A stretch of DNA of 58,425 nt, the filler included, from Jimgerdemannia flammicorona (Eukaryota), in NCBI GenBank assembly GCA_003990765.1. It is 2 parts of 2 records of this genome, joined end to end, with 100 filler letters (N's around TTAATTAATTAA, not from the genome) between each part and the next. Parts side by side here need not be neighbours in the genome. Positions count along the whole stretch, not along the records: positions 1 to 29,185 come from RBNJ01000512.1; 1 more part is not named here. One strand, written 5' to 3'. Below are positions 1 through 48,612 of the stretch, in pieces. The position numbers and the translations under genes were made by a program. Position 1 is the first letter of the stretch. Each line of letters begins with the position of its first letter. Below the pieces are notes generated by a model. That model saw only the letters and a list, made by a program, of their open reading frames with translations, had not been told where the DNA came from and ran no database searches.

Positions 1-1262
1 CTGAATTGACTGACTTTATTTCAGAGGAAATAAGAGAGGTATTTATACAAAATATAATTCAATGGTTGCTAAGATATAAAGCTAAATATAAATTCCAATA
101 ACTAAAACTACTAAGTTCCAGGGCTGGCATTATTTAGTGTCACATCAAAATACCAGTGCTGGAATAATTTTGCATCACCTCAGAATGCTGGTGCTGGCAT
201 TATCCAGTGTAACAAAGAACTTAGAGCAGAAAGTTCAGGATTATGGGGGCTTCATCATCATCACTGAAGAAGATAAGATCCACGAATTTGTTATTTTTGT
301 ATGCTTGAATGTCATGCGGGATGATGTCATCGATGACATCATCACATTCGGCTGTGGTGGGGAAATCAGGGACAAGGTCTGGAGCTGTCCAGTCTATGAG
401 GTTCTCTTCCACAAAATAAGGAACAAATGTGGGGTCTTGGGGAGATCTAACCCAGATGCTTGGGCCTTGGAATACTGAGATCAATCCTTGCAGGAATTGA
501 TCTGGGTTGTCCTGAAGGATAGGGTGCCAGAAGTCTTTTACTTCTTCACTGTTGAGGGTGATAGTGGACTGGGCTTCTGTAGCTACCCTGGCTTCTAGTG
601 CATTGATATGGTAGAATGATAGGTCTCTGAAATCTGAGACTCTAACATACTCTAAGTTGGGGATCGACCATGGTGCATGCCTGAAGATCTGATGGATCTT
701 CCTAGCTGTTCTTGTTTCGTGTATATCTATGGGAGTGGCATCTTGTAGCTCTTGGGTGCTGGCCTGTGGGAACTCCCAGCAGAGGAGGTTTCCTATTTCA
801 TACTCCTGCCACATTTGGAGGCATTCGGTAGCAATGGTGATCCTTGATCCATTTCATGGTAGTAGAGGATAAAGTGATAAGGGTCTGCAATACCCAGGTT
901 GACACTAGGAGTCCTTCTTGAGCAGGTCCTCATGGCTCTTCTGATGTCTTGGAACATCCTTTCCTTGACCAAGATACCTTGGTGATTCCTTGACCTTGAG
1001 GTTTGGCAGGCAGCAGGCATTTTGTTTGTAGTAAGTCTTTGAGCTATTTTGGGATTGGTGGTTCTTGTTGGTTGCTGCTACTGCAGTTCCTTGATCCTTC
1101 TTTTATATTCTTCAAGATGCTCATGCTGTGATCACAATGACTCACAGTTGGTCATCATTGCTCATCTCATATGCCATATGATCTTCTTGTGCTCTGATCT
1201 GGTGGCTTATAAGAAAAGGCTATCTCCTGTGCTGATGTCATCATTCTGGGGTCACCATTATA
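1..1262 (-). mobile_element. Gypsy family-A LTR, truncated by the window edge
   Basis: The reverse complement begins TATAATGGTGACCCCAGAATG at 1262 and is colinear with the LTRs at 40250-41833, 47533-49104 and 23403-24890. Confidence 0.9.
221..1020 (-). pseudogene. LTR-encoded protein of unknown function (family A), split by a 1-nt deletion
   Basis: ORFs 793-1020 and 221-814 join into one frame if GGATCAAGG is restored to GGAAACAAGG as in the solo-LTR copy. The equivalent spans 40490-41341 and 47776-48612 are exact multiples of 3. Confidence 0.75.
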
Positions 1263-3294: not shown

Positions 3295-3476
3295 ATTACC
3301 ATAGTAAGTATAGATATATATAAAATAATTACTATTATAAGGATAAGAAGAATGATAAAAATAAGTATAGAAGTCAGTATTGATAATATGGGAGCAGTGG
3401 AAAGGATGTGATAGCAAGGTATTATATAATATAAATATCTTTAAAACTGATAATAATTATGATATATTTTTTATAT

Positions 3477-11031: not shown

Positions 11032-11990
11032 AAGGAGAAAAGGAGTAAAAGCTCTACAAAACCAAGACCTTCAAGTATGACATCTTCAAGGACCTCAACC
11101 AACAAAAGGTCAATACAACCTTTGGCCAGCTGGCAGAAATACCCACATTTAGATAGCAAATGAGATATGGACTTACTGAGACAACTAAGGAGTAAGGTTG
11201 GAAGATAACAGAGGCCAACAATATTCAAGAAGACTCAGGAGAAGAGAGCAAAGACAACTGCAAGACCTCTGCCTATGCAATCTATCAGATTGCAGATAGA
11301 ATCTTTGAAGCCATTATTGACACAGGAGCAGGAGGATATCTCCTCAGCAAGAAAGCAGCAGACTGCCTAGGTTGGGAAGTTGAAGAAGTAATCTAATTAG
11401 TATTTGTCACAGCAGATGGCATAAGAGCCACACCTCTGGAAAAGATCTGAGATGTTCCCATCAAGTTTGGGAGAGCAACTATTCCAGTAGATGTGATTAT
11501 GACCAATACCACCAACTATGACATCCTTATTGGCAATCAGTGGCTTTATAAAGCTAAGGCAATAATTGATCTGAATCCTCAGAAGATGCAGATCATCTAC
11601 TGAGGCCAGAAGATGTGAATTCTGATTAATGTCAACAAAGGAGTACTGCCTGAGATGGAGGAAGAAGAAAGTGGGCAAGAAGAAGCCTATATGGTGACTA
11701 CTCAGAAAAAGAAGAAGAAAGTCGGATAAATTAGTGAAAAAGAATAATGTAAGATGTTCACAGAAGGATATACACTACAAGGAGTCTGCCCCCATGTAAT
11801 CAAAATGTACTGTGGTGAGCACATCAATAACTGCTACCAATATAGCATCAGTCTCAGAAAAATATATCAGGAAAGAAGAAAGAAGGCTCTTGAAAAGCAG
11901 GCAAGAGAAGAGGAGGAGGAGGAAGAGGATGACAAACCACCAGCCCTCCAGGAGAACAGTGATGATGAAGAAGAAATCAAGGTCAAGATT

Positions 11991-14900: not shown

Positions 14901-17790
14901 GCAGTTGATAGTGGAATGGTGGGGTAAATTCAAACATTTGACTGGTGCTTATTGGAGGGATGTTGGAGAAGTAGCTGAGAAGGAGCAGAAGGATAAGGCA
15001 AGGAGGGTTGAAAGGGGACTGAGGTGGTGATTGAAGCTAATGGAAGGGGGGAACCTGTCTGGAGAGAAGTGCTACCAGTAGGCAGTGGAGGTGGCAGAGC
15101 TACAGACTGAATTGAGGGCTGCCAAGGATAGGGCAGTAGATGGCCTACTTGTCAGACTATGGGCAAGGCAGTTGGAGGAGGGTGAGAGGCCAACTAAATA
15201 TCTGCCTGGAATCTTGAAGGCTAGAAGAGTGTGACACAGTTGGGCCTCTATACTACATGAAGATGGAATAGAGGTCACTGCAATTGCCAATATGTTGGGA
15301 GAGGTCTCAGGACAATGGCAGACTCTCTGGTAGGATGGAGGGGAGCAGGGAGAGTATGCAGTGCTGGGGGAGGAAGATGGCAATATGGTAGACACTTGGT
15401 CAGTAGCAGTGGTACCTGAGATAGCAGGGGCAGTGTTGGGTGAAGTGTCTTTGGATGAAGTCTTGGAGATATTGCAGAAGATGCAGACTGGTTCATCCCC
15501 TGGAGAGGATGGGTTGCCCTGGGAATTCTGGAAGGGGTTCAAGGCAGAGTTTGGTGGCTGGTTGGTAGAGATGACCAACTTTGTCCTGAAAGAGGGCAGC
15601 TGGATTGACAATGGTTCCTTGGGATTAGTTTTCCTCCTATATAAGGAAAAGGGTGATTGGCAGGTGTGGCGGAATTGGTGGCCTATTATGTTGCTAAATG
15701 TGGATAGAAAGCTGGTCTCGAAGATCCTGGCAGGAAGAATGCAGCAGTATATGGGCGTGCTGGTTGGTGAAGAGTAGTGGGGCTTTGTTAAAGGAAGGCA
15801 GATCAGAGATAGTACAGCTTGGGTGCAGAATGTTTTAGAAAGCTGTAGGAGCCGGCAGATGGATGGTATGATGGTTTTCCTGGACCAGGAGAAGGCATAT
15901 GACAGAGTGCAGTAGATATACTTAGAGTCTGTTCTGAGGAAGGCTGGATTTGGAGCAGCAGATACAGGGAGATTGATGGGCTTGGTATGGGGATGCAGAG
16001 TGGCAGTTATGATGAATGGATGGAGTGATCTGGAGTTTGCTTTTGGGCATGGTGTGCCACAGGGAGACCCTCTCTCCCCCCTCCTTTACATACTCTCTCT
16101 GGAGCCATTGCTGGTATGGCTGAAGGGGCAGCTTTCTGGACTGTGAATGGGTGGTATAGTATGGCAACTGGGTGCATTTGCAGATGATATGGTGGTTGGG
16201 TTGGGTAGTATGGAGAATGTGGACCTTTTGCAGGAAGGGGTCGGATAGTATGAGAGACTGGCAGGGGCAAAACTGAACTGGGGCAAGTGTGAGACAATGG
16301 AACTTGGTGCCGGTTTGGGGAAACATGGACAATTTGGACGATTGGTAGCTACTGGAAGTGCTGTTCGATATCTCGGTTTTTGGTTCTCAGTTTATGGGAC
16401 AGTCCTGCCAAAGGAGTGGTGGAGTGGCATAATTCAGAAGTTGGAAGGTGCTTTGACTGGTTGGTCTGGGAGGAGTTTCTCCTTGATAGGTAGGATTGTG
16501 GTCTTGAATATATATTGGCTACCTAAATTGTGGTATCTAGGATATCACTCGGACTTTCCAGAATGGGTAATGAAGAGGCTGAAGAAGATTGTAGAAGGCT
16601 GGTTATGGTATGGGAAACAGCCACAGATTGGGTGGGATGCACTGGTGATGTGGACAACTGATGGCAGCCTGGGGTTGGTAGACTTCAGGCAATGGCTGAA
16701 GGTGCTTAGGGGTTGGTGGGGGTGTCAATTGGTGGAGATAGAAGAAGGGGGTTGGGGCAGGTTGGCAATGAACAATTGGGAGATTTAGTTCTACCCCCAT
16801 GGTGAGGTTTGGAAGGATATGTGGGATTTGCTTCAGGTTGGAAAGTTAGTTGACTGCAGTATAAAGGATTCTGGTGGGGCATAGTGGAGACTTGGCTGGC
16901 CATAGGGTTGGCAGGGCCTGAGATGGAGGATGGTGAGGATCCTGAGCAGAGGTGGCAATTGAGGGGCCTCCATATTGGTAGACATAGTCTGAAGGAGTAC
17001 TCATTGGTTGAGGCAATGGAGTGGATCAGGTCTGGCCCTCTGGAGAGGTGGCTGGTAGGTTAGCAGAAGGCTGGATTGGGTGAAGGCTGGGAGTGGGGCC
17101 GAATCTGGAGTTGGGAAGATACCTTGCTCAAGATGGTACCCCCCAAGTACTGGGTTGTTTGGTAGCACTTCCTGAGGAGGAATGTGATGCTGGGGTATTG
17201 GACAGGATGGATGGAGATAGATGGCTGTTGGAACTGTGAGTAGTGCAGTGAGGTAGATGGCAGGGTGGTTCAATCACCAGAGTATGTTTTGGCAGCCTGC
17301 CCTGGTGTAGAAGAGTTTTGGCAATGCTTGGAAGATTACTGGCACTTAGCTGGCAGAAGAACTGGAGATTCTGTCAGTCTGGTGGTCAAGTGCCAGCTGG
17401 TGGGGGAAATAGGAGATATCTGGAGGGGACTAGATCGGGTCCTAGGGGTCTGAGTCCTGATGGCAGTGTACTGGAGATGGGTATTTGAGTAGGATCCATA
17501 GTTAGGGATTGGTGAGCTAGTGGAGCAGTGGAAGGGGCTTCTTCGAGAGGTGGTACAAGGGTGGTGGTATCAGGGGAGGCGGCTTTAGCCAGGGGCCTTG
17601 CAGAAAGTACAGGACATTATTCAGCAAAGCCGAGGGCATCTGGTGTTGGAGGAGCATAGTATCAGATGGAAGGAAGGGGTTGGGTAACTGATTCTACCTA
17701 AATATGATATATTACATATTACTGTAGCAGGTGGGGTTAATTTCATGATAATAGTGTTTTAGATAGTCCAAATAAAGAAGTCCAAGTGAC

Positions 17791-21691: not shown

Positions 21692-22190
21692 TGTGATGGT
21701 TGATCTGAATTAGGAATATAAATCAGAGGAATTAGACATTTGATTATAGTATCTAAACCCAATTCCCAATATAGTATAGTCTTACAAATAGCAGTCATTG
21801 TTATTTCACAACTATTAAAGTTTTTACAAATGTTAAACTCTTCTCAGATATTGAAGATTTTGCAAATATTGAAGATTTTACAGATGTTGAAGATTTTGCA
21901 GATATTGAAGATTCAATACTTACAAAAAGTGACTCATAGGAAACATAGTCATAACTTAGCCACTATAGCAAGCAAACTTATATCAATAACCCAGTATCTT
22001 AGATTGAATAAACCTTAGATCAAAATTGTTCAAAGCAAAGAGAAAGCAAAGAAACTAGTAAGCCTGCAGGCAGATATACTTTGAACTCACTCCCCTGTAC
22101 TCTGAGGACTCTCTGAGAGTCAGAACAAGTCAAGTTTTCAAGATATAAAAATGTGCTGTACTTCTGAGATTAGGCATCCACTATGTTATA
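21692..22190 (+). repeat. 3' LTR of gypsy B
   Basis: Begins TGTGATGG after the PPT, ends GTTATA (decayed CA) and is followed by ATAT. Confidence 0.9.
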
Positions 22191-23402
22191 ATATAAATAA
22201 TATTTATATATATCTACTAATAAAAATATAGCTGGTGAGAGTACCAATACTTCTAATAATAATGATATTTGACTTATAGATTCAGATATTATATAATATA
22301 TAATAGTTTATCAAAAATAATTCTCAATATATAAACCATTCAAATATTATACTTTAAGTTAGATAACAACAATATTATATATATTTAAAGGAGAGGAAAT
22401 ATTGGTATATATCTTCATAGAAGTGTTTTAGAGTCTGCTGGTACTTTCTAAGATATACTATATGCTTTAAAGATAGAAAATAATCTTTTTTCAATTAGAA
22501 AAATGATGGCTCATAGTGGTAAAGTAATATAATACACCTAATGAGAGCAATAGAATATAGTTAAAGAACAATAAGAAGATTATAATAGTGTTAAAATGAG
22601 GCAATCTTTATATAATCAATAGTATATTAAGTGATATAAAGACCTCTATATATGAGATAACTATATCTGATATATCTAATATATAACATCAATACTTAAA
22701 ATATTTAGAAAAATTGAACTTAGAAAGAATAATCAGAAATAGATCTGTATGAGAATTATTAGCAATACTCTCTAATAATAACTTCTGTAAGAATTATATA
22801 ATAAATAAAGTATCCTGATATTTATTTGAGAAGTAGATGAAATATATATCTAGTATACTTAATTTAATCTATATAGATATATATGGCCTGATGCATACTA
22901 CTTTCTATAGAGAGAAGAGATATTTCACCATATTTATTGATAACTCTATATATAAGATATATATATATATCTTATTAATAAAGCATGAAGTCTTAGATAA
23001 ATTCAAAGAATTTAAAGTAATTGCAAATAACGAAATAGATGTAAAATCTATGTTATATATTCAGATAATAGATGCAAATATATCAATAGTACATTCAAGA
23101 AGTATCTGAGGAAATATAAATATGTTATTAGACAATAGCACTATATATATTATAGCAGAATGATATGGCTAAGCAATTTACTATACAGTTATAAAAATGG
23201 TGAGAATGATAATTAATATAACTAGAATATCATATTTTTATTAGGCTATAGCTATTAATATAATAGAATATATATATAACTAATTTATATTTTAAGCATT
23301 AAGTAAGGAATCTGATAATAATAATAAGTATTTCAGAGATGATAATCTTATTTCTGAAGAATTATGAAGCAAAATAAAGTCAGATATATTATATTGATAT
23401 AT

Positions 23403-24890
23403 TGTCATGTAGTGGTCACTAAGTCCTTCAAATATGTCAGATTCTCTCCAAGGTATATCTCTTAGACTAACCTCAAGTTTGTTATAAGTAAGTTCTTATT
23501 AGAGTGCCTTCCCAAGGTCTTATAGTCCTCAAACTTCTTATCTTTAAACTGTCTTGTTATCTCTTAGATTGCTAAGTTATAAAGCTAAATATAAATTTCA
23601 ATAACCAAATAAAATACTGGAATACAGAAAACTATAGTTATCTGTATAAGTGGTTGCATAAGTTTAGGATATCAGTAGAATTTTGGTGGTATAGAAAAAG
23701 AATATCAGAAGAATTATGAGTTATATAAGATCAGAATGCCAGAAGAATTACAGTTATACAGAAAAAGGATGCTGGTAGAATCTGGTGTTACCAAGAACTT
23801 AGAGTAGAAATTTCAGGACCATGGGGGCTTTATCTTCATCACTATTAAGGCCAGAGGTTAGAGATAGAATGTCTTCAAAGAAGATGAGGTCTGTGAACAT
23901 TTCATCTATTTTGTATACTTCATGCATCTTACATATGTTGTGCAGGATGACATCATCACCAATGAGATCATCATGTTCAGTGGTAGAGAGAACAAGAAGG
24001 TCTGGGACTCTTCATCATAACATTCTCTTCAACAAAATAAGGAACAAATGTATAGCCTTGGAGAGGTTTAACCCAGATACTGGGGCCTTGGAATACTGAG
24101 ATCAATTGTTGCAAAAATTGATCTGGGTTGTCCTGGATAGTATACCAGAAGTCTTCTACTTCATTACTATTGAGAGTAATAGTAGACTGAGCTTCTGTAG
24201 CCACTATGACCTCTAGTACATTGGTGTGGCAAGCTGACAGTTTCTTAAAGTCTGAGATCCTAGTATACTCCAATTTGGGGATCAACTATGGTGTATGCCA
24301 GAAGACCTGATGAATCTTCTTTGCTATCCTTATTTCATATCTATCCATGGGAGTAGTATCTTGAATCTCCCAGGGGCTGGCCTGAGGGAAATTCCAGCAG
24401 AGAAGATTTTCTATTTTATACTTCTGCCATATTCAGAGGCATTTGGTAGCAATGGTGATCCTTGTTTCCATTTCATGGCAGTAGAGGATATAATTATAAT
24501 GGTCACTAGTACTCAGGTTGATGCTAGGTGTCCTTCTTATATGGGTTTTCATAGCTCTTCTAATGTCTTGGAATATCCAATCCTGAACTGAGGGGCCTTG
24601 GTAGTTCCTGGACCTTGAGGTTTGGCAAGCAGCAGGTATTTTATTTGTAGTAAGATTTTAGAACTATTTCTGTAAGCTTTGTTTGAATTGCTGCTACTGC
24701 AATTTCTTGATTCTTCTTTTATATTCCTTGAGATGCCTGTCTTGTAGTTGCAATAACTCATGGTTGGTCATCATTGCTCATCTTATAGCCCAGATGAGTC
24801 ATGCTGTATGATCTTCTCATACTCCAATCTGGTAGTATAAGGAAAGGCTGTCTCTTATGCTGATATCATTATTCTGAGGTCACTATTACA
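23403..24890 (-). mobile_element. Solo LTR of gypsy family A carrying the LTR ORF (about 23799-24639)
   Basis: TG...CA termini, ATAT on both sides and no internal domains. Contains IPKLEY...LISVFQGPSIW. Confidence 0.9.
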
Positions 24891-25786
24891 ATATATATAT
24901 TCATATATAATGTATATATTCTTAATAAGAGTAATACTAATTGGTACAAGTTCAAGCTAAAAGCCAGCAAGAACATATTTCTTGACTCTAGGATTATACA
25001 AATATTATATATAATATATAGTTCAACAAAAAAGAAAATTAGAAACTCTGTGTAAATATATCTATTGGAATCTCTACAATAATATCTCAGTCAGTATAAA
25101 TATAGCAATCAGTACCAGCCTCTCCAAATAAAGAAAAAATATTTTTCAAATATAGCCAGTTGAAAATTTTCTGCTATAGACTAGAGTTATCTGAGCAAAA
25201 AATAATAGAAATTAAGAATGATAAGATCTCTGATAATAATAAAAGGTCCTCTACAAAGAGTAAGCAAAGATACTCTAATGTTTACTGAGAAACTTATTTC
25301 AATTTAGAGAGTTATTGGAATATTCTAAAGTTATCTCAATATAAAGATCATATGAGCTATGTTAAGATATATGAATATATATTTATTATAACTTCTAATA
25401 AGCCAAATATATAATAAGTAATAATTTTTCCTAATAATATGAAATAAAAGTAAGTTATAGATAAAGAGTATAATTCACTTATTGAGAATAGTATATAAGA
25501 TCTGGTACCTCTTCTGAGCAATTAACAAGCTATAGAATGATATTAGGTCTACAAGATTAAGTACAAGAATAATAAAAGTATAGAGTAATATAAAGTATGT
25601 TTTATTGCTAAGAGTTATTTGTGAGATTATAATATTGACTATAGTGAAATATTTTTTCTAGTATTCAAGCTTACATTACTGAGAATACTTCTTAGAATTA
25701 TTACTATATATAATTTGAATATTTATCAGATAGATATAAAGATGACTTTTCTCAATAGTAATATAGTGTGACATACACAATTGACA

Positions 25787-26959
25787 ATGGAGTACCAGTG
25801 ACTGCTAAGATCAGACGACATAATGGCGTAACAATCAAATAGACAGCCTGACCCATTAAGTGATCATCCCAAATGAAGACAAGATGATCCAAGCCAAAAT
25901 GAAGACCACATTATTTAAGGAACCATACTCCACCTCAAGGATTGGCACTAAAGAACCAAGTACCCACCACACAATATCTCCCATTCGCTGAACCAACCAG
26001 ACCTCCCGCTGCTCTACCCCTTTGCCTGGCCCAATGACCCTGATCTTTGAAGCATTAAGAAGGCCATCTGGCACCCAGATACTTCCGAACACTTGAACTT
26101 CTACACTGAGGACCTTGGACACTTCATCAACTACTGGTATATAATGACCCAATAGCTCAAAGATACTACCGAACGAATGACCCTCTGGCATGACTATGAA
26201 ATTGGACACTGCCTTCGCAATGAGACTCAAGAAGGCGACCAGGAAGACCTCATTGCCGAAATGTTAACCACCAGCTGGCTAATCAAGAGAGCCCTCCATG
26301 TCCATCAAATCTTCTGCCATATTCCTTGGGCTATAGCACACTTGCAAGGAGTAACAGCTGGCAGTCTCTCTCACCTTTCAACTGAAGATGCTGACTGGAT
26401 AGAATCTGAAGTAGCCAATGCTATTGGCAGCAACTACATCGCTATAAGAAGCCAACAAACTGAATCTACTCAGCCAGGTTTCCACACCACCCCACTCCGA
26501 GACAACCATCAAGATCACCTAATGAGTCTTATGGAGATATTTGAAGGACCGCCCATCACTATAGAGACACCCATTGGAGCTACCCCAACCACCCACCACC
26601 CTGTCAGCCACAATTCACACCTCATCATTTGGGAACCGAATTAAGAAGAAGCCCAAGAAGTTCCTGTCTTTGAAGAGGAGGCCCAAGAACTCCAAGACCC
26701 TGCCCCTGAAGAAACCCCCTCTGACACTGAAACTGATGAGCCTTCAGAAGAAGAAGAGGAGTAACAGAGAGTCTACCAGTCCTCTGTCCGCATTCAAGCT
26801 GTTCAAGGGTTGGAGAATGTTGTTGAAGATGACTGGCCACTTTTCTACCCCCTCACCTCTTGGCCAGTGCTTCCCCCCTTTGAGGAGAGATATGATGAAG
26901 AAGAAATCACAACCCAGCAAGATTTGCCCACCATGGATGAAGGGTACTATTTCCTCTAG
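25787..26959 (+). pseudogene. LTR-encoded protein, family C homolog (up to about 390 codons, several internal stops)
   Basis: ATGs at 25787, 25823 and 26177 and the TAG at 26957 share one frame. The core aligns to the family-A LTR protein and the tail is acidic. Confidence 0.7.
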
Positions 26960-27310
26960 AGTACCGCCCATCAGCCATAAGAACCCAGCTTTTGTCAGCA
27001 AGTCCGTTTCCAGTGTTGCTACCCAGTACCACCATTTTCAGCATTTTGTCAGCAGGTCCAAATCCAGTGTTGCCACCCTCCACAACCACTTCTGGCAACA
27101 ATCATCGTATCATGTCAGCCCATCCGAATCCAGCATTGCTATCCTCTATAACCCAATCTGTAGTAAACAATAGCCTGCACCTCGCATCATACAAGCCAAT
27201 AGCATAGCGAAGTTCGCCACAACATAGTATACCTTAGCCTTAGTCGCGCCCCCTCCCCCATAGCTAGCAAACTTGTATAAATAACCCATATTCTTAGAGT
27301 GAATAAACCT

Positions 27311-27826
27311 CAGTCAGCTTGTGTTTAAAAAGTAAAAAGGATTACAAAGAAACCACTGCCTCCAAGAGACCGGAAAATTCTGAGAACAAGATAACAACCT
27401 AGAGTAATGGATCGCTCGGAAGTTTGAGTTAAGGAATTTCTCTTGCCGCCTGAATTTCAAGTTTTGCCGCCACGAAAAGGATTCAAGACCACGGACCACC
27501 CACAATTCAGTCAGTTCTAGTTTACAAAGAAACCACTGCCTCCAAGAGACCCGAAAATTCTGAGAACAAGATAACAACCTAGAGCAACAGATCGCTCGGA
27601 AGTTTGAGTTAAGGAATTTCTCTTGTCGCCTGAATTTCAAGTTTTGCTGCCACGAAAAGGATTCAAGACCACGGACCACCCGCAATTCAGTCAGCTTGTG
27701 TTTAAAAGTAAAAAGGATTACAAAGAAACCACTGCCTCCAAGAGACCAGATAAATTCTGAGAACAAGATAACAACCTAGAGCAACAGATCACTCGGAAGT
27801 TTGAGTTAAAGAATTTTCTCTTGCCA
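27311..27826 (+). repeat. About 180-196-bp tandem repeat (about 2.7 copies) in LTR C
   Basis: TTACAAAGAAACCACTGCCTCCAAGAGACC recurs at 27342, 27522 and 27718. Confidence 0.9.
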
Positions 27827-29185
27827 CAGAAAGAAAGAAAACGTTACCTGACTGCCGCCATTTGACCGCCATTTGACCGCCATTCAGACCGCCGCCATTC
27901 AACTGCCATTCAGACTGCCGCCATTTGACCGCCATTCGAGATTCAAGACCCGGAAACCCAAGGATACCCAGCTAAAGAATACTAGACTGCCAAAGACAAG
28001 ACCGCTGCCAAAGACCTGAATGACTGCCATGAACCATTTAAAGTCAAGACGGAGGAGCGAGCTGTAAACCTCTGTTTCCTGACCTACTGCGCCATGGACC
28101 ACTATAATTGACCATATAAAGAGCAAGACCATCAAGACCATTGCCGCATAAATTCAAGTTTGCCACCAAGTTAATCGCCACCAGGAATGCCCTTTTCCAC
28201 TGGATATTGAGCCATTGAACAATCAAACGACCTCATCCACTAAACAATTGAGCCACCATCATTGAACGATCTCCTGCTATTATTATTACCGCACGAATCG
28301 AACAACCTGTCACATGACCATCAACTTGTAATCATCGCGAATGCATTCAGTTATATATTGCATGCTTCACCAGTGGCACACATTGAGCCGTGCAGTTGAA
28401 GTTCATTATACATAACCAATGCCACATTTTGGGGGCTCAACTGGGAAAGTTTTCAAAAGACTTGACCATTTGGCTCAAGAACCCAGCTATCTACAGTGGA
28501 GAACTTAGCAGGACCAAGTCAGCAACTGAACCAGGGGCAGCAACAGCCCTCCTCAGCAGAAAAGAAAGCCCACACCCTTGTCAGAACAGTAGCCAGGACC
28601 CTACTCAACACTAGTAGCCAGAAAACCGAATCAGAAGAAAGAAGTGACCCAGATTACGGTTTGACTTCAAGAGAAAGGAGACAACTCAGAGAGCAATCAG
28701 AACCGCCCCTTCAGATCCAAGACTTAGGCCAAGAAGAAGAAGAAGAGGATATCCCCGAGGGGTATCAGACCCTTATCCATAGGAAGAACTCAGACAGGAG
28801 TGACTACATAACTACTGTTGTTACCTGAGTCACTCCACTAGACCAGGTATACTTTGAAACATCAGAAGGAGAAGAGGACTACCATCCATATCAACCAGAG
28901 CAAGATGACAATTGGGGATCAGAGCATCAAAGGGACGAATTCAACCTATACTATTATCCAGACAGCGACACTGACCCACAACAAGGCAAACCAGACCTCA
29001 CTGCTTCACAACAGCAAGGGGCAGACGAACTCACTATCAGTTATATCAGTCCACTCCCACCATCAGTTGCTCGAACTTCAGTACTCTGGTCACTCACACC
29101 TCACCACTATCACCAGTCAATCAGAAGATCTCCACCACTACCCAGGACCTCTCCCACAGCATTAATTAGAAGAGCCAGATTACCC

Positions 29186-29285
29186 NNNNNNNNNNNNNNN
29201 NNNNNNNNNNNNNNNNNNNNNNNNNNNNNTTAATTAATTAANNNNNNNNNNNNNNNNNNNNNNNNNNNNNNNNNNNNNNNNNNNN
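29186..29285. other. Artificial contig spacer
   Basis: 44 N + TTAATTAATTAA (stop codons in all six frames) + 44 N = exactly 100 nt. Confidence 0.95.
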
Positions 29286-30934: not shown

Positions 30935-33082
30935 CTATATCTATGTTTTAGTCAGTATAATAATCAGTACTGTCAATATCTCTAATAATTCCAGTGATAA
31001 ATCAAAATTATTATCAACTACTATATATACTTAAGTCAGAGTTATCTGAGCCAAGAATCACTGAGATCAAAGATGATAACAGTGAATTCTCCAATAATGA
31101 GAAATCTTCCATTAAGGGTAAGAATAAGCAAAAGCCAAAGCATTAGCCCAGGAATAAGATATATTCAGAATTAGAAAGTTATTGGAACATATTAGTGAGC
31201 TCTAGATAGCAGTAATGTCAAGACTATGTGAGCTATACTAAAGCATATGAATGTATATATATCATAATATCTAGTAAGTCAAATATATATGACAAAGCTA
31301 TAAGCAATGCTGATAATAAAAAATAGTAATATGTGATAAATAAGAAATACAATTTGCTTATTGAGAATAGTACCTAGGATCTAATACCCCTTCTGCTAAA
31401 TTATCAAGCAATCAGATCTAAGTGGGTCTATAGAATCAAGTATAAAAGTGACGGAAGTATAGAGTAGTATAAAGCTCATTTTATTGCCAAGAGTTATTCA
31501 TAAGATTATAGTATAGACTATAACAAGACATTTTTGCCAGTATTCAAGCTTACTTTGCTTAGAATACTCCTTGCAATTAGTATGATATATGATCTCAAAA
31601 TTTATCAAATAGATATAAAGATAATGTTTCTAAATAGTGATATAGTTATCAAATTATATATCTGACAATTACAAGAATATAAACTATATAATAGCCCAAA
31701 TAGTAAGCTTATATGTAAATTACACAAAAGACTATACAGTATTAAGTAAGCAGTATAACTATAGAATAAAAGAATCAATAAGCATCTATTTAACAATGGG
31801 TTCACATATTGTGAAGCAGATAATTATATATATGTCTAATATTATAATAATAGCATAGTATTTATTAATATATAGGTTGATGATATAATTATCATTACTA
31901 GTAAGAACAGGCTTAACAGAGTAAAGAAAACCCTATACTGAGAATTCAAGATGACCAACATGAGTGACATATCCTTTCTTTTGAAGATATCAATTATATA
32001 TAATAGGAATATATATACTATATATCTCTCATAAGAAACTTATACCAAAGCCATTCTTAAATGCTTCAATATAAGTGAATGTAAGCCTGTGAGTACCCCA
32101 ATGGAGACTTCTATAAAGTTAAGGAAGCCTAATAATATGCCTGAGAATGATGACAATATGTTTACTAAAAATATTCCCTATTGACAAGCAGTTGGTTCTC
32201 TTATATATCTCATACTAAAAATAAGATCCAACATATTATATACCATAAATAAGGTGGCACAGTACTCCTTCTACTATAATAATTTATATTAAAATACCAT
32301 TAAGAGGATTTTCTAATACTTAAAGAGATCTATATATTATATACTTATATTGGATAGTAATATTAGATTAAGTAGGAGCAATGATAAGAGTAATGATATC
32401 TGACTATCTGGTATATATAATACCAATTGGGTCAGAGACTTAGATAATCACTAGTCTATAACTGGATATCTCTTCTATATTGGCAAAAACAACAAAGGGT
32501 CTATAATCTTGTGGTAAATATATAAGCAATCTTTCATTGTAATATTATCTATACAAGCTGAATATCAGGTTTTATCATTGATAACAAAGGAAGCCATCTG
32601 GCTCTACAAACTATTAAAGAAACTTAGATTTATACAAAAAAGCACTATACTATACCAGGATAACCAGTTTATAATTATACTTACCAAGAATCTAGTATAT
32701 TACAATAGAATAAAACATATTAATATATAGCATTATTTTATATGTAAATGTATAAAAACTGATACTATATATCTAGAATATATATATCTCTATAGAGTAT
32801 ATAATTGTAGACTTATTGATCAAAATCTTTCCAAAGTCAAAGTTCAAGCAATATACTAAATAAATGGGTCTTATGAGATATATACTAGTATACAATTGAT
32901 TTCAGAATACTTTTTGACCTGTGAAAATTTCTACATTAGTTCAGACCTATATTATCAGTTTTTTACTATATTTTTTATCTATTTTTATATTTATAAGCAG
33001 AGAATTTTGATCTTTTGCAGTTATCTAAATAGTACCCTATTAGTTATATGTATATAGTTTACTCTAGTTTGCTTCTATTTTA

Positions 33083-36839: not shown

Positions 36840-39760
36840 TTACAATTTGGCTAGCAGCTGGTTTCCATCCTTGGCGGACTCCATCAACTCGCGATACAGT
36901 GCATCAATCTCGATCCTGTACTTTCCCGCGCATTGGGGCCGCTTGACCTTGAGACTGAGAGCGATCATTCATGTTATATACTCGGTAAAAGATTACAGAA
37001 AAGATATTGCAGGTGAAGTCAGTGAACAATGTAAAATTTTCCGAAAGTCTTACGTTGGCGTCAAAAGATCATTCTCAATAGAGAAGGGGACTGTGTCGAT
37101 GTAAATGGCCTTGACACACTCGAACCTGTAAAATTGATGAACATATCAATGCGACGAGAACATAATCAATTAGAGGAAAAGGGTCGAAATAACGACCATG
37201 TCGTATTCCAGATATCCCAAAAGCCCTGGCTTCCTCTCTCCTTCCCCGACTAATTTCAATGCAAAGGAAGGTAAATCTATTACCCACCCCTGTAAGCCAC
37301 CTTCCTTTGCAGTCTTATCCATCTCTACCAATGTTGCCTTCCTCACGCGGTCATCGCGGACAAGTTCTTCGAAGGGTCGTTTAACACCAATAACTTTCTG
37401 CCCAAAAGGCACGAAGACCAGGGGGTCTGGTACAATAATGGCCACCAACTGGTTCTGCAATGAATCGCCGTGAACTGGAAAGTGGGTAAGAGGGTTCAGT
37501 GAGCACCACTGTTACATACGAAATGGTTAAAGGGCAGTATTCCGCAAGACTTACCGTAAATCTGCGAGAATATGGTGTTCTTCAAATATACGTTTTCGAT
37601 TTTCTCCGGTGCGATGTATTCACCTTCAAGAGAAAACAAGACCAAGCACAACATAAAAACACACATACACTAAAGCCCGAACCCATGCATGATTTCGAGA
37701 AAATACAGCATCACCCGCCAGTTCAAACTATCCCACACCTGTAACATACCTTGTGCAAGCTTGAAAATATTTTTCTTGCGATCAATAATTACAATCGCGC
37801 CCCTTTCGTCAATCATGCCAATATCTCCTGAATAGTACCATCCTTCCTTGTCAAGGGCCTCCTCCGTTTTCTTGGGATCCTTGTAGTATCCGACGAACAC
37901 GTTTTTGCCCCGTATGCAGATCTCACCTCGGGGATACGGGTCCGTAGCTAAATAATTCATCTCGGGCACATCCACCAGCTTGATCTCGTTACATGGGAAT
38001 GAAGAGCCAAGATGGCCTCCACGATACTCGCCAGGGTGAGTTACAGAGGCTGTAGCACAGGTTTCGGTCGCGCCATACCCTTCATAAATTTCACAGCAGA
38101 AAGCGATACGAAGGAAAGAGAGGATCTCTTTGGCGATGGGAGCGGAGCCACAGCAAATGCTACGGACACGCCCACCAAGAGCGAGGCGCATCTTGTTGAA
38201 AAGAAGACGATCCCATATAGGGTGAGTAAAACCGCGGCCGGCTTCGAGGTTGGCAAGTTTGTCGGCAACAGCTTTGCGGGCGAGGATCCCAACGACACCA
38301 GGTGCTTCGACAGACGAGGAAACTATTTTCGCGTAAATACGATTGAGAAGGCGAGGGACGGAAATCATCACGGTTGGTCTGAGTGTTTGCATATCCTCGA
38401 CGAGAAGGTTGATGTCGCCGCTAAAGTATCCAATGGCGGCGCCAATTTTAATGGCGCTCAAGTCGCACATACGACCAAAGATGTGCGCAAGTGGTAGGTA
38501 GGAAATTACAACATCTTCTTGGCGGAACGGCATAGTAAAGGTGGTACCACTGGCGGAAGCAGTGAAATTTTCATGGGTCAACATAGCACCCTGAGATGGA
38601 ATGAAGAAAATACGACGTCCGATGAATACAAAAATCAATGAGAATATACTATCAAAATTGAACAGACTCGAGTCATCCTGAAATTACCTTGGGAACACCA
38701 GTGGTACCACTCGTATACATAATACAAGCCAAATCATCCGGTTTAGGCGGATTGTGCTTCCTCTTGTTTTTTTTGCCCAGCTCCTCAACTGCCGTAATAT
38801 CGATCAAGTAAATACCCTTCTCGGCTGCCCACGCCTTAAGTGCGCTCGCCTTTGTCGGGATATTGGGCGCGGCCCATTTCGTCGCATCGTCTTCCAAGCT
38901 ATCCATCGAGATAACTATCTGAAGTCCAGGGATCTTAGGACTGAGCTGAATCAAGCTGATTATATGATCTGCCGAGGTAATCAGGATGGGGATCTCGGCA
39001 TGGTTAATTACGTACTCGACCGTGTCAGGACCAAGGGTATCGTACAAAGAAATGGTAAAGAGATTGTATGAGGAGCACGCGGTATCGGCGATGCACCATT
39101 CGGGCCTGTTCGTGGACCAGATTCCAACTGGAAATTTTTCGAGTTTGGGGAGGCGCGCCACGGTTTCTGCGAGATGAACGAGACCAGAACCAAGGTTGGT
39201 TACCCGGTTGGCAACCTGGCGATAAGTTTGCCAGACATAGACGCCACGTTTGCCAGTTTTGGGATCAATGACACGGGTGCCAAGGAAAGGTCTATCCTTG
39301 GAAATCTTCAGACCTGGAAACAAAGTTATAGGTGAGAATCAATATGACGACGCGGAAATAATTTGATCGGAAACTTCGCTTTGATTCATCATCAATCCAA
39401 TCGGAACAATGTTATGAGACGCACACAATTTCGGGAACGAAAAGCCCGTGGTGTTCACGAGTTATAACACTACTTTTGATGATGACAAGAGAACACCTAC
39501 CGTAGCGGAAATTTTCGTAAAGGGTGGTGATCTTGGGGTTGCTAGAGATGACCAACTTGTCGGCATAGAGCGGGTGGCGGTAAATGCCTGCACGAAGCCG
39601 AGAGAATCGAAGTCAAAAGAACAAAAAATATAACTAAATGCAAATGCATCGTGTTTGTCGAGGCAAAGGAAAGAATTTTACCCGTCTGACCAGGTTTCCT
39701 GGTACCAGGAAGCTCAATGGTTTGCTTTTCCAAGCTGATTTTTTTCAGAACGGTTGTCAT
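36840..39760 (-). CDS. Long-chain fatty acyl-CoA synthetase (ACSL/Faa2-type), 691 aa, with C-terminal PTS1 (AKL)
   Basis: Exons 39760-39682, 39587-39501, 39313-38688, 38590-37750, 37623-37555, 37474-37288, 37125-37054 and 36954-36840 total 2076 nt. All introns are GT-AG and phase-consistent. Motifs: YTSGTTGVPKG, YLPLAH, GYGATE, SGDIG, DRKKNIFKLAQGEYIAPEKIE, LTPTLKVKR. Confidence 0.95.
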
Positions 39761-39945: not shown

Positions 39946-41959
39946 GGAAATCGCTCTTCATTTCTGGGTTTTTGATGCTTAAAATAGCAATAATAATTAC
40001 AGAGGGTTTTTGATTGTGAAGAGTGTTATAATGTAGGGCAGGAGGGGAGATTTGTACAGATGCCTAAATATTGACTGAATGAGTGTGAGATACTTGGAGA
40101 CCTCTGGGAGTGGGGAGACATGAGGGTGAGAAGGGGGGCCAATGGGATGACTTAAGGGTGTGATTAGTGGGGTATGTTGGTAATGAGTGGCTTATTATTG
40201 GGTAGGCTTTAGTAGTATAGGTAGAGTTGGTTAGACATTAGTTATATATTATAATAGTAACCCCAGAATGATGACATCAGCACAGGAGATAGCCTTTCCT
40301 TGCAAGCCACCAGATTGAAATACAAGATCATACAGTATACAAGATGAGCAATTATGACCCACTGTGAGTCATTGTGACCATAGTACAGATATTTTGAGAA
40401 ATATAAAAGAAAGATCAAGGAACTATAGTAGCAGTAACTCAATAAGACCTACCAATTCCAAAATAGCTCAAAGACTTACTATAAATGAAATGTCTGCTGC
40501 TCACTAAACCTCAAAATCAAGGAACTACCAAGGTATCTCAGTTGAGAAAAGAATGTTCTAAGACATTAGAAGAGTCATGAGGACCTATACAAGAAGAACT
40601 CCTAGTGTCAATCTGAGTACTGGTGACCCTTATCACTATATCCTCTATTGTCATGAAATAGAAATAAGAATCATCATTACTATCAAATATCTCCAAATAT
40701 AGCAGGAGTATAAAATAGGAAACCTCCTCTACTAAGAGTTCCTATAGGCTAGCTCTCAAGAGTTATAAAATACCATTTTTATAAATATATATAAAATAAG
40801 AATAGTTAAGAAAATCTATCAGATCTTTAGGTATACATTATAGTCGATCCCCAACTTGGAGTATGTTAGAGTCTCAGACTTCAGAGACCTGTCAGTCCAC
40901 CATATCAATATACTAGAAGCCAGGATAGCTATAGAAGCTCAGTCTATTATCACTCTCAATAGTAATGAAGTAGAAGACTTCTGATATTCTATCCTTTAGG
41001 ATAACTCAGACTAATTTCTGCAAGGATTGATCTCAGTATTCCAAGGCTCAAGTATCCAGGTTAGACCTCTCTAAGACTCCACATTTGTCTCCTATTTCAT
41101 GAAAGAGAACTTCATAGACTGGAGAGCTCCAGATCTCCTTATTTCTGCTACTACCAAATGTGATGATGTCATCAGTGATGACATCATCCCACATGATATA
41201 TATGAAACATATGACCCATGTAACCTATATAATAATGATGATGATGAGATGGATGAAATATTTGCAGACCTCATCTCCTTCAAAGACATCCTGACCTCTG
41301 ATGAGGATGAAGCCTTTATAGTCTTAAACATTCTGCTCTAAGTCTCTTAGTTATACTGAATAATACCAGTACTCTTTTTCTATATAATAGCTATTCCTTC
41401 ACTGGTATTCTGATGTGACTCAGAATTATTCCAGTACCATTTTCCTATACCACTGAAATTATATCAGCATCTTGAACCTATACAAATATCAGTACCAATA
41501 CTAGAACTTAATAGTTTTCTATATTCTGGTATTTTATTTTAGTTATTGGAATTTATATTTAGCTTTATATCTTAGCAACTATTGAATTATATTTTGTATA
41601 AATACTTCTCTTATTTCCTCTGAAATAAAGACAGTTCTGGTTTACTTATACACAATCTCTTGTAAGCAATCTAAGAGATAATAAGATAGTTAAAGATAAG
41701 AAGTTTAAGGACTATAAGATCTTGGGAAGATACTCCAATAAGAACTTGCTTATAATAAATATGAGTTAGTCTAAGAGATACATCTTGAAGAGAATCTAAT
41801 ATATTTAAAGAACTCAGCAACTACTATATGACAACTTGGTATCCATTGACTAGTGATTCAAGATGAATTCCTCACTTTTAAGCTGAAAAATGAACAACCA
41901 CTACAACAACTACTCTGACTACAAGAGTCACCCCTGTAAGAATTCAAGATAAGATAGAA

Positions 41960-47775: not shown

Positions 47776-48612
47776 ATGCCTGCTGCTCATTAAACCTTAA
47801 GATCAAGGAATCACCAAGGTACTTCAGTCAAGGAAAGAATATTCCAAGACATCAGAAGAGCCATGAAGACCCATACAAGAAGAACTCCTAGTATTAACCT
47901 AGACACTGGTGACCCTTATCACTATATCCTCTATCACTATAAAATGGAAATAAGGATCACTATTGCTACCAAATACCTCTAAATATAACAGAAGTATGAA
48001 ATAGGAAACCTCTTATACCAGGAGTTCCCACAGGCCAGCCCTCAAGAGTTACAAGATACCACTTCTATGGATATATGTGAAACAAGAACAGCTAAGAAGA
48101 TCTATCAGATCTTCAGACATACATTATAGTCAATCTCCAATTTGGAGTATGTTAGAGTCTCAGACTTCAGAGATCTATTAGCTCACTATATTAATGTACT
48201 AGAAGCCAGAGTAGCTACAGAAATACATTCTACTATCACTCTCAATAGTGATGAAGTAGAAGACTTCTGGCATCCCATCCTCCAGGACAACCCAGACCAA
48301 TTCCTACAAAGATTGATCTCAGTATTCCAAGGCTCAAGTATCCAGATTAGATCTCCCCAAGGCCCCACATTTGTTCCCTATTTCATGGAAGAGAACCTCA
48401 TAGACTGGAGAGCTCCAGACCTCCTTGTTCTCACTGCTACCAAATGTGATAATATCATCCCATGTAATATATGTGAAATATGTGACCTATGTAATCTATA
48501 CAACAATGGTGATGATAAGATAAATAAAACATTCATGGACCTTATCTCCTTTGAAGACATCCTGATCTCTGATGAGGATGAAGCTCCTATAGTCTTGAAT
48601 ATTCTGCTCTAA
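47776..48612 (+). pseudogene. LTR-encoded protein (family A) in the 3' LTR; twin at 40490-41341 in the 5' LTR
   Basis: 279 codons from MPAA to NILL*. The provided ORF 48142-48612 is its C-terminal part. Confidence 0.75.

What the first reader, a model, noticed from the sequence alone, without database searches (positions are those of the whole stretch)
25787..26959. Divergent homolog of the LTR protein in an unrelated giant LTR
Seen: LTR C has no evident nucleotide similarity to LTR A and uses a different PBS, yet encodes a homolog at the same position. NFYTEDLGHFINYWYIM..TERMTLWHDYEIGHCL aligns with NLGIADPYHFILYYHEM..TECLQMWQEYEIGNLL. HQIFCHIPWAI aligns with HQIFRHAPWSI, and LRDNHQDHLMSLMEIFEGPPI with LQDNPDQFLQGLISVFQGPSI. 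Both end in acidic tails. Inference: protein-level conservation despite DNA divergence indicates purifying selection on an old, possibly undescribed family of LTR-borne proteins.
Basis: partly seen in the sequence, partly recalled or inferred. Interest (0 to 1): 0.8.

Follow-up and report, generated by a model that had tools for sequence, protein, structure and literature searches.

The report
Protein gene carried inside retrotransposon LTRs
A broken copy of an unnamed protein gene sits inside the long terminal repeat of a (probably fungal) retrotransposon, and related genes sit at the same place in repeats that otherwise look unrelated, so these mobile elements seem to carry an extra gene of their own there.

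Summary
The frame at 25787-26959 is homologous to the ORF in the 1.6 kb "A" LTRs (tblastn E 3.6e-12; 0 of 2000 shuffles reach the score; BLASTP between intact relatives E 4e-17). The LTRs show no significant DNA similarity.

The window copy is dead: its start codon is lost, and it has one frameshift and four premature stops. The true ORF is 25974-26959. All 5 family copies in the window are broken. Intact relatives of 247-342 aa exist in metagenome contigs, and soil-run contigs are open where the window copy is broken. Codon-position differences (3>1>2) and dN/dS of 0.18-0.34 indicate purifying selection.

25767-28426 is very probably an LTR. It has a sharp left boundary, TGTGACAT...ATGCCACA termini, a TGG-type primer site 3 bases downstream, and a 54-bp TATA/AATAAA core shared with a proven LTR pair. 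One soil contig places its start right behind a purine-rich tract. Its second copy lies beyond a contig gap.

In both LTR types the ORF lies upstream of that core, so probably in U3, behind its own TATA-like box.

The protein has a helical core and an acidic disordered tail. It has no Pfam, PDB or fold match, and only 10 relatives among 1.84 billion representatives. Its function is unknown; a trans-acting regulator is my guess.

The parts
25767..28426 (+). LTR 'C' (2660 bp), probably the 5' LTR of a truncated Ty3/gypsy-type element
   Evidence: The termini are TGTGACAT...ATGCCACA. Collinearity with a second copy of the flanking repeat stops exactly at 25767. A contig of soil run X2 starts matching at 25767, preceded by 24 unlike letters that end in a purine-rich tract. 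A 54-bp core is 85% identical to the LTR of a proven LTR pair.
25912..25919 (+). TATA-like box (TATTTAAG) 55-62 bp upstream of the former start codon
   Evidence: The aligned A copies, L001 and L002 carry TATAAAAG about 55-85 bp upstream of their ATG, followed by a conserved leader. Its function is inferred.
25974..26959 (+). Decayed ORF of the LTR-borne protein, about 328 codons. The start codon is lost, there is one frameshift near 26053, and premature stops lie at 25989, 26153, 26642 and 26762.
   Evidence: Relatives P0009 and P0008 are open at these places. Soil contigs differ from the window at the lost start, the frameshift and two of the stops.
26051..26773 (+). Part of the ORF matched by the family profile (helical core plus the start of the tail)
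   Evidence: hmmsearch of the A4 profile against the six frames gives score 253.5 and i-E 7e-79. Two rows of A4 come from the window itself, the C ORF among them, so this and the other window scores are partly circular.
26645..26956 (+). Acidic tail of the protein
   Evidence: It has 32 D+E against 3 K+R in 104 residues. The equivalent tail of P0011 is modelled as disordered, with pLDDT below 50.
27259..27313 (+). Conserved LTR core: TATAAATA (27276-27283) and AATAAA (27302-27307). This is the putative promoter of the genomic RNA and the poly(A) signal, and so the U3/R border.
   Evidence: The core aligns with the B LTRs (four copies), the A LTR and L002. blastn against the B LTR gives 54 bp, 85%, E 1.8e-13. 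Soil contigs of B-like LTRs share only this piece.
27337..27937 (+). Tandem repeats in the long putative U5: 180 bp x 2.6, then units of 11-26 bp
   Evidence: Tandem Repeats Finder and the repeat finder D15.
28430..28446 (+). Primer-binding-site-like sequence starting TGG, 3 bases after the LTR end. It differs from the one of elements A and B.
   Evidence: Read. The tRNA partner was not identified: there is no tRNA in the window and no genome is held.
28427..29185 (+). Start of the internal region of element C, cut off by an artificial contig join (N runs and a stop linker at 29186-29285)
   Evidence: tblastx finds no relative of it in the window.
224..1011 (-). A-type homolog inside an A LTR copy (191-1271). 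It has one frameshift and no stops.
23802..24579 (-). A-type homolog inside an A LTR copy (23397-24899). It has one frameshift and two stops.
40550..41341 (+). A-type homolog inside the 5' LTR (about 40250-41834) of a complete element. It has 10 premature stops.
47824..48612 (+). A-type homolog inside the 3' LTR (47534-49105) of the same element. It has 3 premature stops.
   Evidence: The internal region carries PR, dUTPase, RT and RNase H.

Best explanation
The frame at 25974-26959 is a mutated, dead copy of an accessory gene. That gene is a regular component of the LTRs of a clade of Ty3/gypsy-type retrotransposons of an unnamed host, probably a soil fungus.

SHOWN:
- The protein is homologous to the ORF of the A LTRs.
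- Intact relatives exist elsewhere.
- The gene evolved under protein-level constraint.
- In both LTR types it starts 200-250 bp from the LTR 5' end and ends 180-310 bp upstream of a conserved TATAAATA...AATAAA core.

INFERRED, about 0.55:
- That core is the promoter and poly(A) module of the element, so the ORF lies in U3.
- The ORF forms a self-contained unit with the TATA-like box 55-85 bp upstream of its ATG and uses the LTR's own AATAAA. Every LTR, paired or solo, could then express it.

GUESSED, about 0.25-0.3: the protein has a partly basic N-terminus, a helical core of about 170 aa, and a 65-125 aa acidic disordered tail ending in a conserved hydrophobic motif. I guess it is a soluble trans-acting regulator of the element, either an activator of LTR transcription or an antagonist of host silencing.
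For: Homology: (5 copies in the window, all inside LTR-type sequence).

Decay of the window copy, with open relatives elsewhere:
- P0009 and P0008 (73-74% identical) are open at the stops.
- Soil-run contigs carry one extra base at the frameshift in 4 of 4 runs. They read another letter at the lost start, at the first stop and at the 26642 stop in 3 of 4 runs each; the fourth run lacks cover there.
- Intact ORFs: L001 (291 aa), L002 (323 aa), P0001, P0003 and P0011.

Constraint:
- Differences by codon position are, for example, 0.354/0.239/0.507 for A1-L002.
- NG86 dN/dS is 0.36/1.86 for A1-L002, 0.57/3.26 for L001-L002 and 0.61/1.81 for A1-L001.

LTR status of C.

Position relative to the core:
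- C: stop at 26959, TATA at 27276.
- A: stop at 41341, core near 41597.
- L002: stop near 1040, core at 1214-1262.
- The short B LTR (485 bp, a proven pair at 3476-3958 and 21693-22190) has this core and no copy of the ORF. I saw no other clear TATA box in it by eye.

Upstream TATA box and conserved leader in 3 A copies, L001 and L002; C has TATTTAAG.

Protein features:
- AlphaFold2 model of P0011: residues about 20-170 are helical with block pLDDT up to 96, and the tail 228-332 is below 50.
- The tails are acidic.
- There is no transmembrane stretch: max 19-residue hydropathy is 1.05 in 9 proteins.
Against: - There is no RNA evidence of any kind, so no transcription start, poly(A) site or splice has been mapped. 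U3/R/U5 borders are inferred from motifs only.
- 0 of 5 window copies are intact.
- The second LTR of element C was not seen.
- The TATA-like box of C deviates from that of the other lineages.
- The core could be only a poly(A) module, with transcription starting upstream of the ORF.
- No fold or family supports any function. The best structural Z is 4.0, and winged-helix/MarR rows reach only Z 2.6-3.0 at rmsd about 8 A, which is noise level. The model of the C-type fragment P0009 is unusable, pLDDT 45.5.
- The family is tiny in public data (10 representatives), and all members sit on short contigs without context.
- dS is saturated, and the alignments behind dN/dS were guided by the proteins.
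Confidence: 0.55

Rival explanations
1. Leader ORF. Transcription of the genomic RNA starts at the upstream TATA-like box, so the ORF lies in a very long R (or R-U5) and is the first cistron of the full-length RNA. The conserved core downstream would then be only the poly(A) signal. This resembles the extra ORFs upstream of gag in plant elements, but pushed into the LTR.
For: - A TATAAAAG box and a conserved leader lie 55-85 bp upstream of the ATG in 3 A copies, L001 and L002.
- From my own knowledge of yeast 3'-end signals, not from a call: the core's TGTATA...AATAAA also fits a fungal-type efficiency plus positioning element.
Against: - Apart from this core I saw no clear TATA box by eye in the ORF-less B LTR, so the core must also act as a promoter there.
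- With the poly(A) signal 1.3 kb downstream of the cap in the 5' LTR, most transcripts would end before gag.
- An R of more than 1 kb is unknown to me (recalled).
Confidence: 0.15
2. A 3' accessory gene expressed like MMTV sag. The ORF is read only from the 3' LTR, on a spliced subgenomic RNA or by an internal promoter in pol. The upstream TATA-like box would be irrelevant.
For: - The ORF lies upstream of the core, that is in U3, which is transcribed only at the 3' end of the genomic RNA.
- MMTV sets the precedent. The abstract of PMC2118998 in the listing names the ORF of the 3' LTR; the rest is recalled.
Against: - No splice acceptor was looked for or found.
- Conservation of the TATA box and leader across lineages that share only about 40% of residues is easier to explain if they are used.
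Confidence: 0.15
3. Transduced host gene. An ancestral LTR captured a cellular gene fragment that is merely carried along, and the constraint seen dates from its cellular past or from host copies.
For: - LTR retrotransposons do capture ORFs (passages of PMC6431247).
- Most database relatives sit on short contigs whose context I could not see.
Against: - The profile search finds only 10 proteins among 1.84 billion representatives, none longer than 342 aa and none named.
- 5 of 5 window copies and L002 are in an LTR context.
- Constraint is seen between LTR-borne lineages themselves.
Confidence: 0.07
4. 25767-28426 is not an LTR but the 5' part of some other repeat, or the internal region of an element, so the C copy is not LTR-borne.
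For: - The other end of the element is missing: the contig ends at 29185.
- A U5 of about 1.1 kb would be unusually long.
Against: - TG...CA termini with a 7-of-8 inverted repeat.
- A TGG primer site 3 bases after the end.
- A core shared with a proven LTR pair.
- A sharp left boundary.
- A soil contig with a purine-rich tract abutting 25767.

Confidence: 0.05
5. Chance or non-coding similarity: the shared peptides reflect conserved cis-regulatory DNA, not a protein.
For: All window copies carry stops or frameshifts.
Against: - There is no DNA similarity between the LTRs, while the protein alignment has z 23.7.
- Codon positions differ in the order 3>1>2.
- Several intact ORFs of 250-340 codons exist.
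Confidence: 0.02

Closest known systems
MMTV superantigen gene (sag) in the U3 of the retroviral LTR
   Same: A protein-coding ORF lies inside the LTR, upstream of the promoter/poly(A) region. It is therefore present twice per provirus. It is an accessory gene, not needed for the gag-pol machinery. (The 3' LTR ORF is named in an abstract in the listing; the details are recalled.)
   Different: - There is no sequence or family relation: 0 Pfam families.
- There is no transmembrane segment, whereas Sag is a membrane glycoprotein (recalled).
- The host is probably a fungus and the element a Ty3/gypsy retrotransposon without env.
- Here a TATA-like box lies directly upstream of the ORF.
Extra ORFs of LTR retrotransposons outside the LTR: rice Retrosat2/RIRE3/RIRE8 ORF0, and the Boty/BcGypsy1 additional gene brtn
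   Same: These are lineage-restricted ORFs of unknown function carried by Ty3/gypsy elements with long LTRs. They evolve faster than pol yet stay conserved (passages of PMC3485330; PMC8365987; PMC6431247).
   Different: - Retrosat2 ORF0 lies upstream of the gag-pol ORF.
- brtn is called antisense in the title of a reference listed in PMC8365987.
- Here the ORF is inside the LTR itself in 5 of 5 window copies, in sense orientation.
- Sequence relation to those ORFs was not tested, as no sequences were at hand.
Regulatory genes at the 3' end of complex retroviruses that overlap U3 (foamy virus tas/bet, HIV nef) - recalled, not from a call
   Same: The position at the 3' end and into U3, the small soluble protein, and (for Tas) an internal promoter and an acidic activation region are what my function guess is modelled on.
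   Different: No homology or fold match was found in solved or viral predicted structures. Neither DNA binding nor activation was tested.
dUTPase-bearing fungal Ty3/gypsy elements (Postia PosPlaTy3-5, Phanerochaete, Tuber Tmt1)
   Same: Element A has PR-dUTPase-RT-RNase H in that order, as described for these fungal elements (passages of PMC2864245; PMC6431247).
   Different: The passages I read mention 'add. ORF' only in a figure legend, without a place. I saw no mention of an ORF inside an LTR. Their supplements were not opened.

Membership tests
Long terminal repeat of an LTR retrotransposon (for 25767-28426) | TG...CA termini forming a short inverted repeat | tested here: met
   The termini are TGTGACAT at 25767 and ATGCCACA ending at 28426; 7 of 8 terminal positions are complementary.
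Long terminal repeat of an LTR retrotransposon (for 25767-28426) | Sharp boundary against the DNA into which the element is inserted | tested here: met
   The flank 25338-25767 is collinear with 31214-31646. That second copy goes on differently exactly at the boundary. The X2 contig breaks at 25767.
Long terminal repeat of an LTR retrotransposon (for 25767-28426) | The same sequence repeated at the other end of the element, behind a polypurine tract | tested here: inconclusive
   The element is cut by the contig join at 29186. In one soil contig (X2, 330 nt) the LTR start is preceded by 24 unlike letters, and 10 of the last 12 are purines. This resembles the tracts before the 3' LTRs of A and B.
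Long terminal repeat of an LTR retrotransposon (for 25767-28426) | Primer-binding site complementary to a tRNA 3' end just inside | tested here: inconclusive
   A TGG-initiated 17-mer lies 3 bases after the LTR. No tRNA is in the window and no genome is held, so complementarity could not be tested.
Long terminal repeat of an LTR retrotransposon (for 25767-28426) | Homology to LTRs proven by pairing | tested here: met
   The 54-bp TATA/AATAAA core is 85% identical (E 1.8e-13) to the B LTR, which occurs as a pair at 3476-3958 and 21693-22190.
Long terminal repeat of an LTR retrotransposon (for 25767-28426) | Target-site duplication | not testable with these tools
   The right end is absent from the window.
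MMTV Sag-type U3 gene | ORF wholly inside U3 | tested here: inconclusive
   The ORF ends 180-310 bp upstream of the conserved TATA/AATAAA core in C, A and L002. The transcription start was not mapped.
MMTV Sag-type U3 gene | Membrane-anchored glycoprotein of the Sag family | tested here: not met
   No hydrophobic 19-mer exceeds 1.05 in 9 family members. Pfam finds 0 families for the C and A ORFs. Among the 15 members scanned, no family is hit by more than 2, with best E 0.026.
Extra ORFs in the internal region of LTR retrotransposons (Retrosat2 ORF0 type) | Located between the LTR and gag, or between pol and the LTR | tested here: not met
   5 of 5 window copies lie inside LTR sequence. Both LTRs of the complete element 40250-49105 carry one.
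Extra ORFs in the internal region of LTR retrotransposons (Retrosat2 ORF0 type) | Sequence similarity to those ORFs | not tested
Retroviral-type transactivator (working model only) | DNA-binding domain plus acidic activation region | tested here: inconclusive
   The acidic disordered tail is present. The helical core gives no fold match above noise: best Z 4.0 of 48161 chains, and Foldseek finds 0 hits at E<=1e-3 in PDB and BFVD.
Any curated protein family | Profile or sequence match | tested here: not met
   Pfam finds none. The best PDB sequence hit is E 1.6. The best Atlas score is 0.88, below the 0.9 lead level.

The most novel reading that the evidence does not exclude
Each LTR of this retrotransposon clade is a complete small gene: its own TATA box, an ORF of 250-340 codons, and the LTR's poly(A) signal. 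The gene encodes a new kind of element-made nuclear regulator, either an activator of the LTR or a blocker of host silencing. It would be doubled at every integration and still be expressed from solo LTRs long after the element is gone. Because genome annotation masks LTRs as non-coding, the family has stayed invisible except as metagenomic 'hypothetical proteins'.
Probability: 0.25. Interest if true: 0.8.

Novelty: new variant of a known kind. Interest (0 to 1): 0.62.

Why it matters
LTRs are treated as non-coding control regions and are masked before gene calling. A conserved protein gene housed in U3 of Ty3/gypsy retrotransposons would be a rare parallel to MMTV sag outside the retroviruses. 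It would add an accessory-gene layer to the biology of fungal mobile elements.

It would also mean that solo LTRs can remain protein-coding. That bears on how such elements are regulated or escape silencing.

The question is directly testable. Intact natural copies exist (L001, L002 and several metagenome proteins), and clear promoter and poly(A) candidates flank them.

Tried and rejected
- Whole genome: none is held, so tRNA matching, copy counts and the other end of element C could not be done.
- RNA evidence: no RNA holder is listed among the 9 runs (6 studies, all labelled soil metagenome, shares 0.05-0.19). This says nothing about expression.
- Viral contigs: 0 of 104 pattern matches were relatives.
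- Protein identity searches all gave nothing usable:
  - Pfam.
  - PDB sequences.
  - Foldseek against PDB and BFVD.
  - VIA-align against 48161 chains: best Z 4.0; MarR/winged-helix rows at Z 2.6-3.0 are not above noise.
  - ESM Atlas: best 0.88.
- Second model: the C-type fragment P0009 gave pLDDT 45.5, so it was not searched.
C has no pol in the window.
- Earlier notes of this scan: nothing on this genome or sequence.
- An intron across the stop at 26153 was considered. It was rejected because P0009 reads straight through with a sense codon.
- The overlapping +3 frame at 26565-27173 (202 aa) was considered as a second gene. It has only chance-level Pfam hits (E 0.11-0.12) and no homologs were sought, so it was left as probably non-coding.
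- Host identity was not established. 'Fungal' rests on the dUTPase-bearing Ty3/gypsy type and on the soil runs.
Full report
**Setting**

The window is a nest of LTR retrotransposons, with stretches at 22-30% G+C and others at 42-52%. Pfam on 87 stop-to-stop frames finds aspartic protease, dUTPase, RT, RNase H and integrase zinc-finger pieces. It also finds one cellular gene, an AMP-binding enzyme at 37673-39338 on the minus strand. At 29186-29285 two N runs flank a short all-frame stop linker. This is an artificial contig join. No whole genome is held.

**The observation**

The C frame, read with X at stops, hits three A-type copies by tblastn:
- 832-440: E 3.6e-12, 29% over 136 aa.
- 47851-48369: E 1.3e-9.
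- 24543-24049: E 6e-7.

A local alignment of the two longest open pieces scores 158. The shuffle mean is 31.6 (sd 5.3, max 71), and 0 of 2000 shuffles reach the score. Two intact relatives from public data, P0003 (A type) and P0009 (C type), align with BLASTP E 4e-17 over 165 residues from their first residue.

A profile of the family finds 5 copies in the window: C, plus four A copies at 224-1011(-), 23802-24579(-), 40550-41338(+) and 47824-48609(+). It finds nothing else. The profile alignment A4 includes two rows from the window itself, so the window scores are partly circular. Sensitive blastn between LTR C and two A LTR copies gives nothing better than E 0.03.

**State of the window copy**

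The copy is a pseudogene.
They read sense codons where the window has stops.
- In window terms the gene began at 25974, where the start codon is now mutated.
- It loses frame near 26053.
- It has premature stops at 25989, 26153, 26642 and 26762, and ends at 26959.
- Contigs of four soil-metagenome runs laid on the stretch carry one extra base at the frameshift in 4 of 4 runs.
- They read another letter at the lost start, at the first stop and at the 26642 stop in 3 of 4 runs each. The fourth run has no cover there.
- Across those four runs, most listed differences are transitions in the direction window T or A against contig C or G.
- The four A copies are broken too: 1 frameshift; 1 frameshift plus 2 stops; 10 stops; 3 stops. 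So 0 of 5 copies are intact.

**The family elsewhere**

- The word-index search with the A ORF gave 7 proteins among 103 candidates.
- The same search with the C ORF gave 2 among 7 candidates.
- The exhaustive profile search over 1.84 billion representatives gave 10 proteins at E<=1e-3, of which 6 are at <=1e-10 and 5 at <=1e-30. The longest is 342 aa.
- These include a third subfamily (P0010, P0011) that bridges A and C, and three remote members (P0013, P0015, P0016).
- For the seven clusters I looked up, the sources are JGI/IMG or ENA, with no accession and no name other than 'hypothetical protein'.
- The one metagenome scan returned two short contigs with intact ORFs: L001 (291 aa) and L002 (323 aa).

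**Selection**

Between lineages, differences per codon position follow 3>1>2:
- A1-L002: 0.354/0.239/0.507.
- L001-L002: 0.455/0.358/0.602.

NG86 dN/dS values are:
- 0.36/1.86 for A1-L002.
- 0.57/3.26 for L001-L002.
- 0.61/1.81 for A1-L001.
- For the C pairs, 0.78/3.10 and 0.73/2.13. One further C pair has undefined dS.

dS is saturated and the alignments were protein-guided, so only the direction is reliable. Together with several open frames of 250-340 codons, this supports long-term constraint on a protein.

**Is 25767-28426 an LTR?**

Element A is a textbook case.
- Its LTRs at about 40250-41834 and 47534-49105 are 84% identical.
- A purine-rich tract precedes the 3' LTR.
- A TGG primer site follows the 5' LTR.
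- PR-dUTPase-RT-RNase H lie between the LTRs.
- AT-rich 5-base flanks are compatible with a target duplication.

Element B (LTRs at 3476-3958 and 21693-22190, 485 bp) shares A's primer site and internal region but has no ORF in its LTR.

For C, the evidence is as follows.
- The left flank is collinear with a second copy of the surrounding repeat up to exactly 25767, where that copy goes on differently.
- The ends are TGTGACAT...ATGCCACA.
- A TGG-initiated 17-mer follows after 3 bases. It differs from the A/B site.
- A 54-bp core with TATAAATA and AATAAA is 85% identical to the B LTR, E 1.8e-13. It is also recognisable in the A LTR and in L002.
- In run X2 a contig matches from exactly 25767 onward. 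It is preceded by 24 unlike letters, and 10 of the last 12 are purines, as before the 3' LTRs of A and B.
- Soil contigs of B-like LTRs share only the core, at 27259-27313.

The second repeat itself lies beyond the contig join. I rate LTR status at about 0.9-0.95.

**Where the gene sits**

| LTR | LTR 5' end to ATG | ORF stop to core |
|---|---|---|
| C | 207 bp | about 310 bp |
| A | about 240 bp | about 255 bp |
| L002 | not seen | about 180 bp |

In B this core is the only clear TATA box I saw by eye. The AATAAA lies 19 bases after the TATA box. I therefore read the core as promoter plus poly(A) signal with a very short R, and the ORF as lying in U3. This is inference.

A second conserved feature lies upstream of the ORF. 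It is TATAAAAG (TATTTAAG in C), placed 55-85 bp before the ATG and followed by a conserved leader. It is present in 3 A copies, L001 and L002, lineages that share only about 40% of residues. This suggests a self-contained unit of box, ORF and the LTR's own AATAAA.

C's putative U5 is long, about 1.1 kb. It holds 2.6 copies of a 180-bp repeat and shorter repeats. Soil copies vary there.

**The protein**

- AlphaFold2 with the 15-row alignment gives for P0011 a mean pLDDT of 62.7 and pTM of 0.51.
- Residues about 20-170 are helical, with block pLDDT up to 96. Two short hairpins follow, and 228-332 is below 50.
- The tails are strongly acidic, pI about 4.05.
- No transmembrane stretch exists.
- Nothing is found in Pfam, in PDB sequences, with Foldseek in PDB or BFVD, with VIA-align (0 of 48161 chains at Z>=5) or in the Atlas.

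The function is therefore open. My working guess, at about 0.25-0.3, is a soluble trans-acting regulator of the element. It rests only on the architecture (folded core plus acidic tail with a conserved hydrophobic end) and on the analogy with 3'-end regulators of complex retroviruses, which is recalled.

**Literature**

Five full-text searches and passages of four papers were read. The results were:
- MMTV sag as the LTR-ORF precedent (listing).
- Extra ORFs outside LTRs in plant and fungal elements (PMC3485330; PMC8365987; PMC6431247).
- dUTPase-bearing fungal Ty3/gypsy elements (PMC2864245).

I found no description of a protein family housed in LTRs of fungal elements. Supplements were not opened, and subscription journals are not covered.

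**Verdict**

This is a decayed member of an unnamed, selectively maintained family of proteins encoded inside LTRs, most likely in U3 with its own promoter. It is a new variant of a known kind: accessory ORFs of LTR elements, and U3 genes of retroviruses. Expression and function remain untested.

Noticed in passing
window 29186-29285: Two N runs flank a 12-base all-frame stop linker. This is an artificial join of two contigs, so 29286 onward need not be adjacent to element C in the genome.
   Followed up: partly
window 5001-17000: There is a strong, sustained GC skew (+0.33 to +0.54 per kb in most of the stretch, +0.15 at 11001-12000) over two copies of a G-rich, C-poor element on the + strand. 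It has an RT fragment at 8821-9093 and a related copy at 57276-58392. The cause of the strand asymmetry is unexplained.
   Followed up: no
window 3476-3958 and 21693-22190 (B LTRs) versus 40250-41834 (A LTR): Elements A and B share the primer site and the internal sequence (67-80% DNA identity). B's 485-bp LTR lacks the ORF, so the gene is present or absent between sister elements. B's core is nearer to C's than to A's.
   Followed up: partly
window 191-1271, 23569-24899, 40250-41340, 47534-48640: In the four A LTR copies, C-to-T type changes hit CpG most (46-57% of sites), then CpA (11-41%) and CpC (14-33%), and CpT least (6-10%). This looks like methylation-linked deamination rather than classical CpA-directed RIP. 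The ancestral guess was crude.
   Followed up: partly
window 37673-39338 (-): The only cellular gene in the window is an AMP-binding enzyme. It is split into two abutting frames that overlap by 8 bases, with contiguous Pfam profile positions (18-178, then 179-384). This is a frameshift or pseudogene rather than an intron.
   Followed up: no
window 44006-44515 (+): A dUTPase domain lies between protease and RT in element A (E 1e-22), as reported for some fungal Ty3/gypsy elements.
   Followed up: partly
window 26565-27173 (+): A 202-codon open frame in another phase overlaps the acidic tail of the LTR gene and runs into a region with a 73-base repeat. Pfam hits are at chance level only, so it is probably not a gene.
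   Followed up: partly
window 1286-1784 versus 22255-22742: An inverted pair (68% identity) flanks element B between the two minus-strand A LTR copies. The nesting order of this part of the window was not resolved.
   Followed up: no
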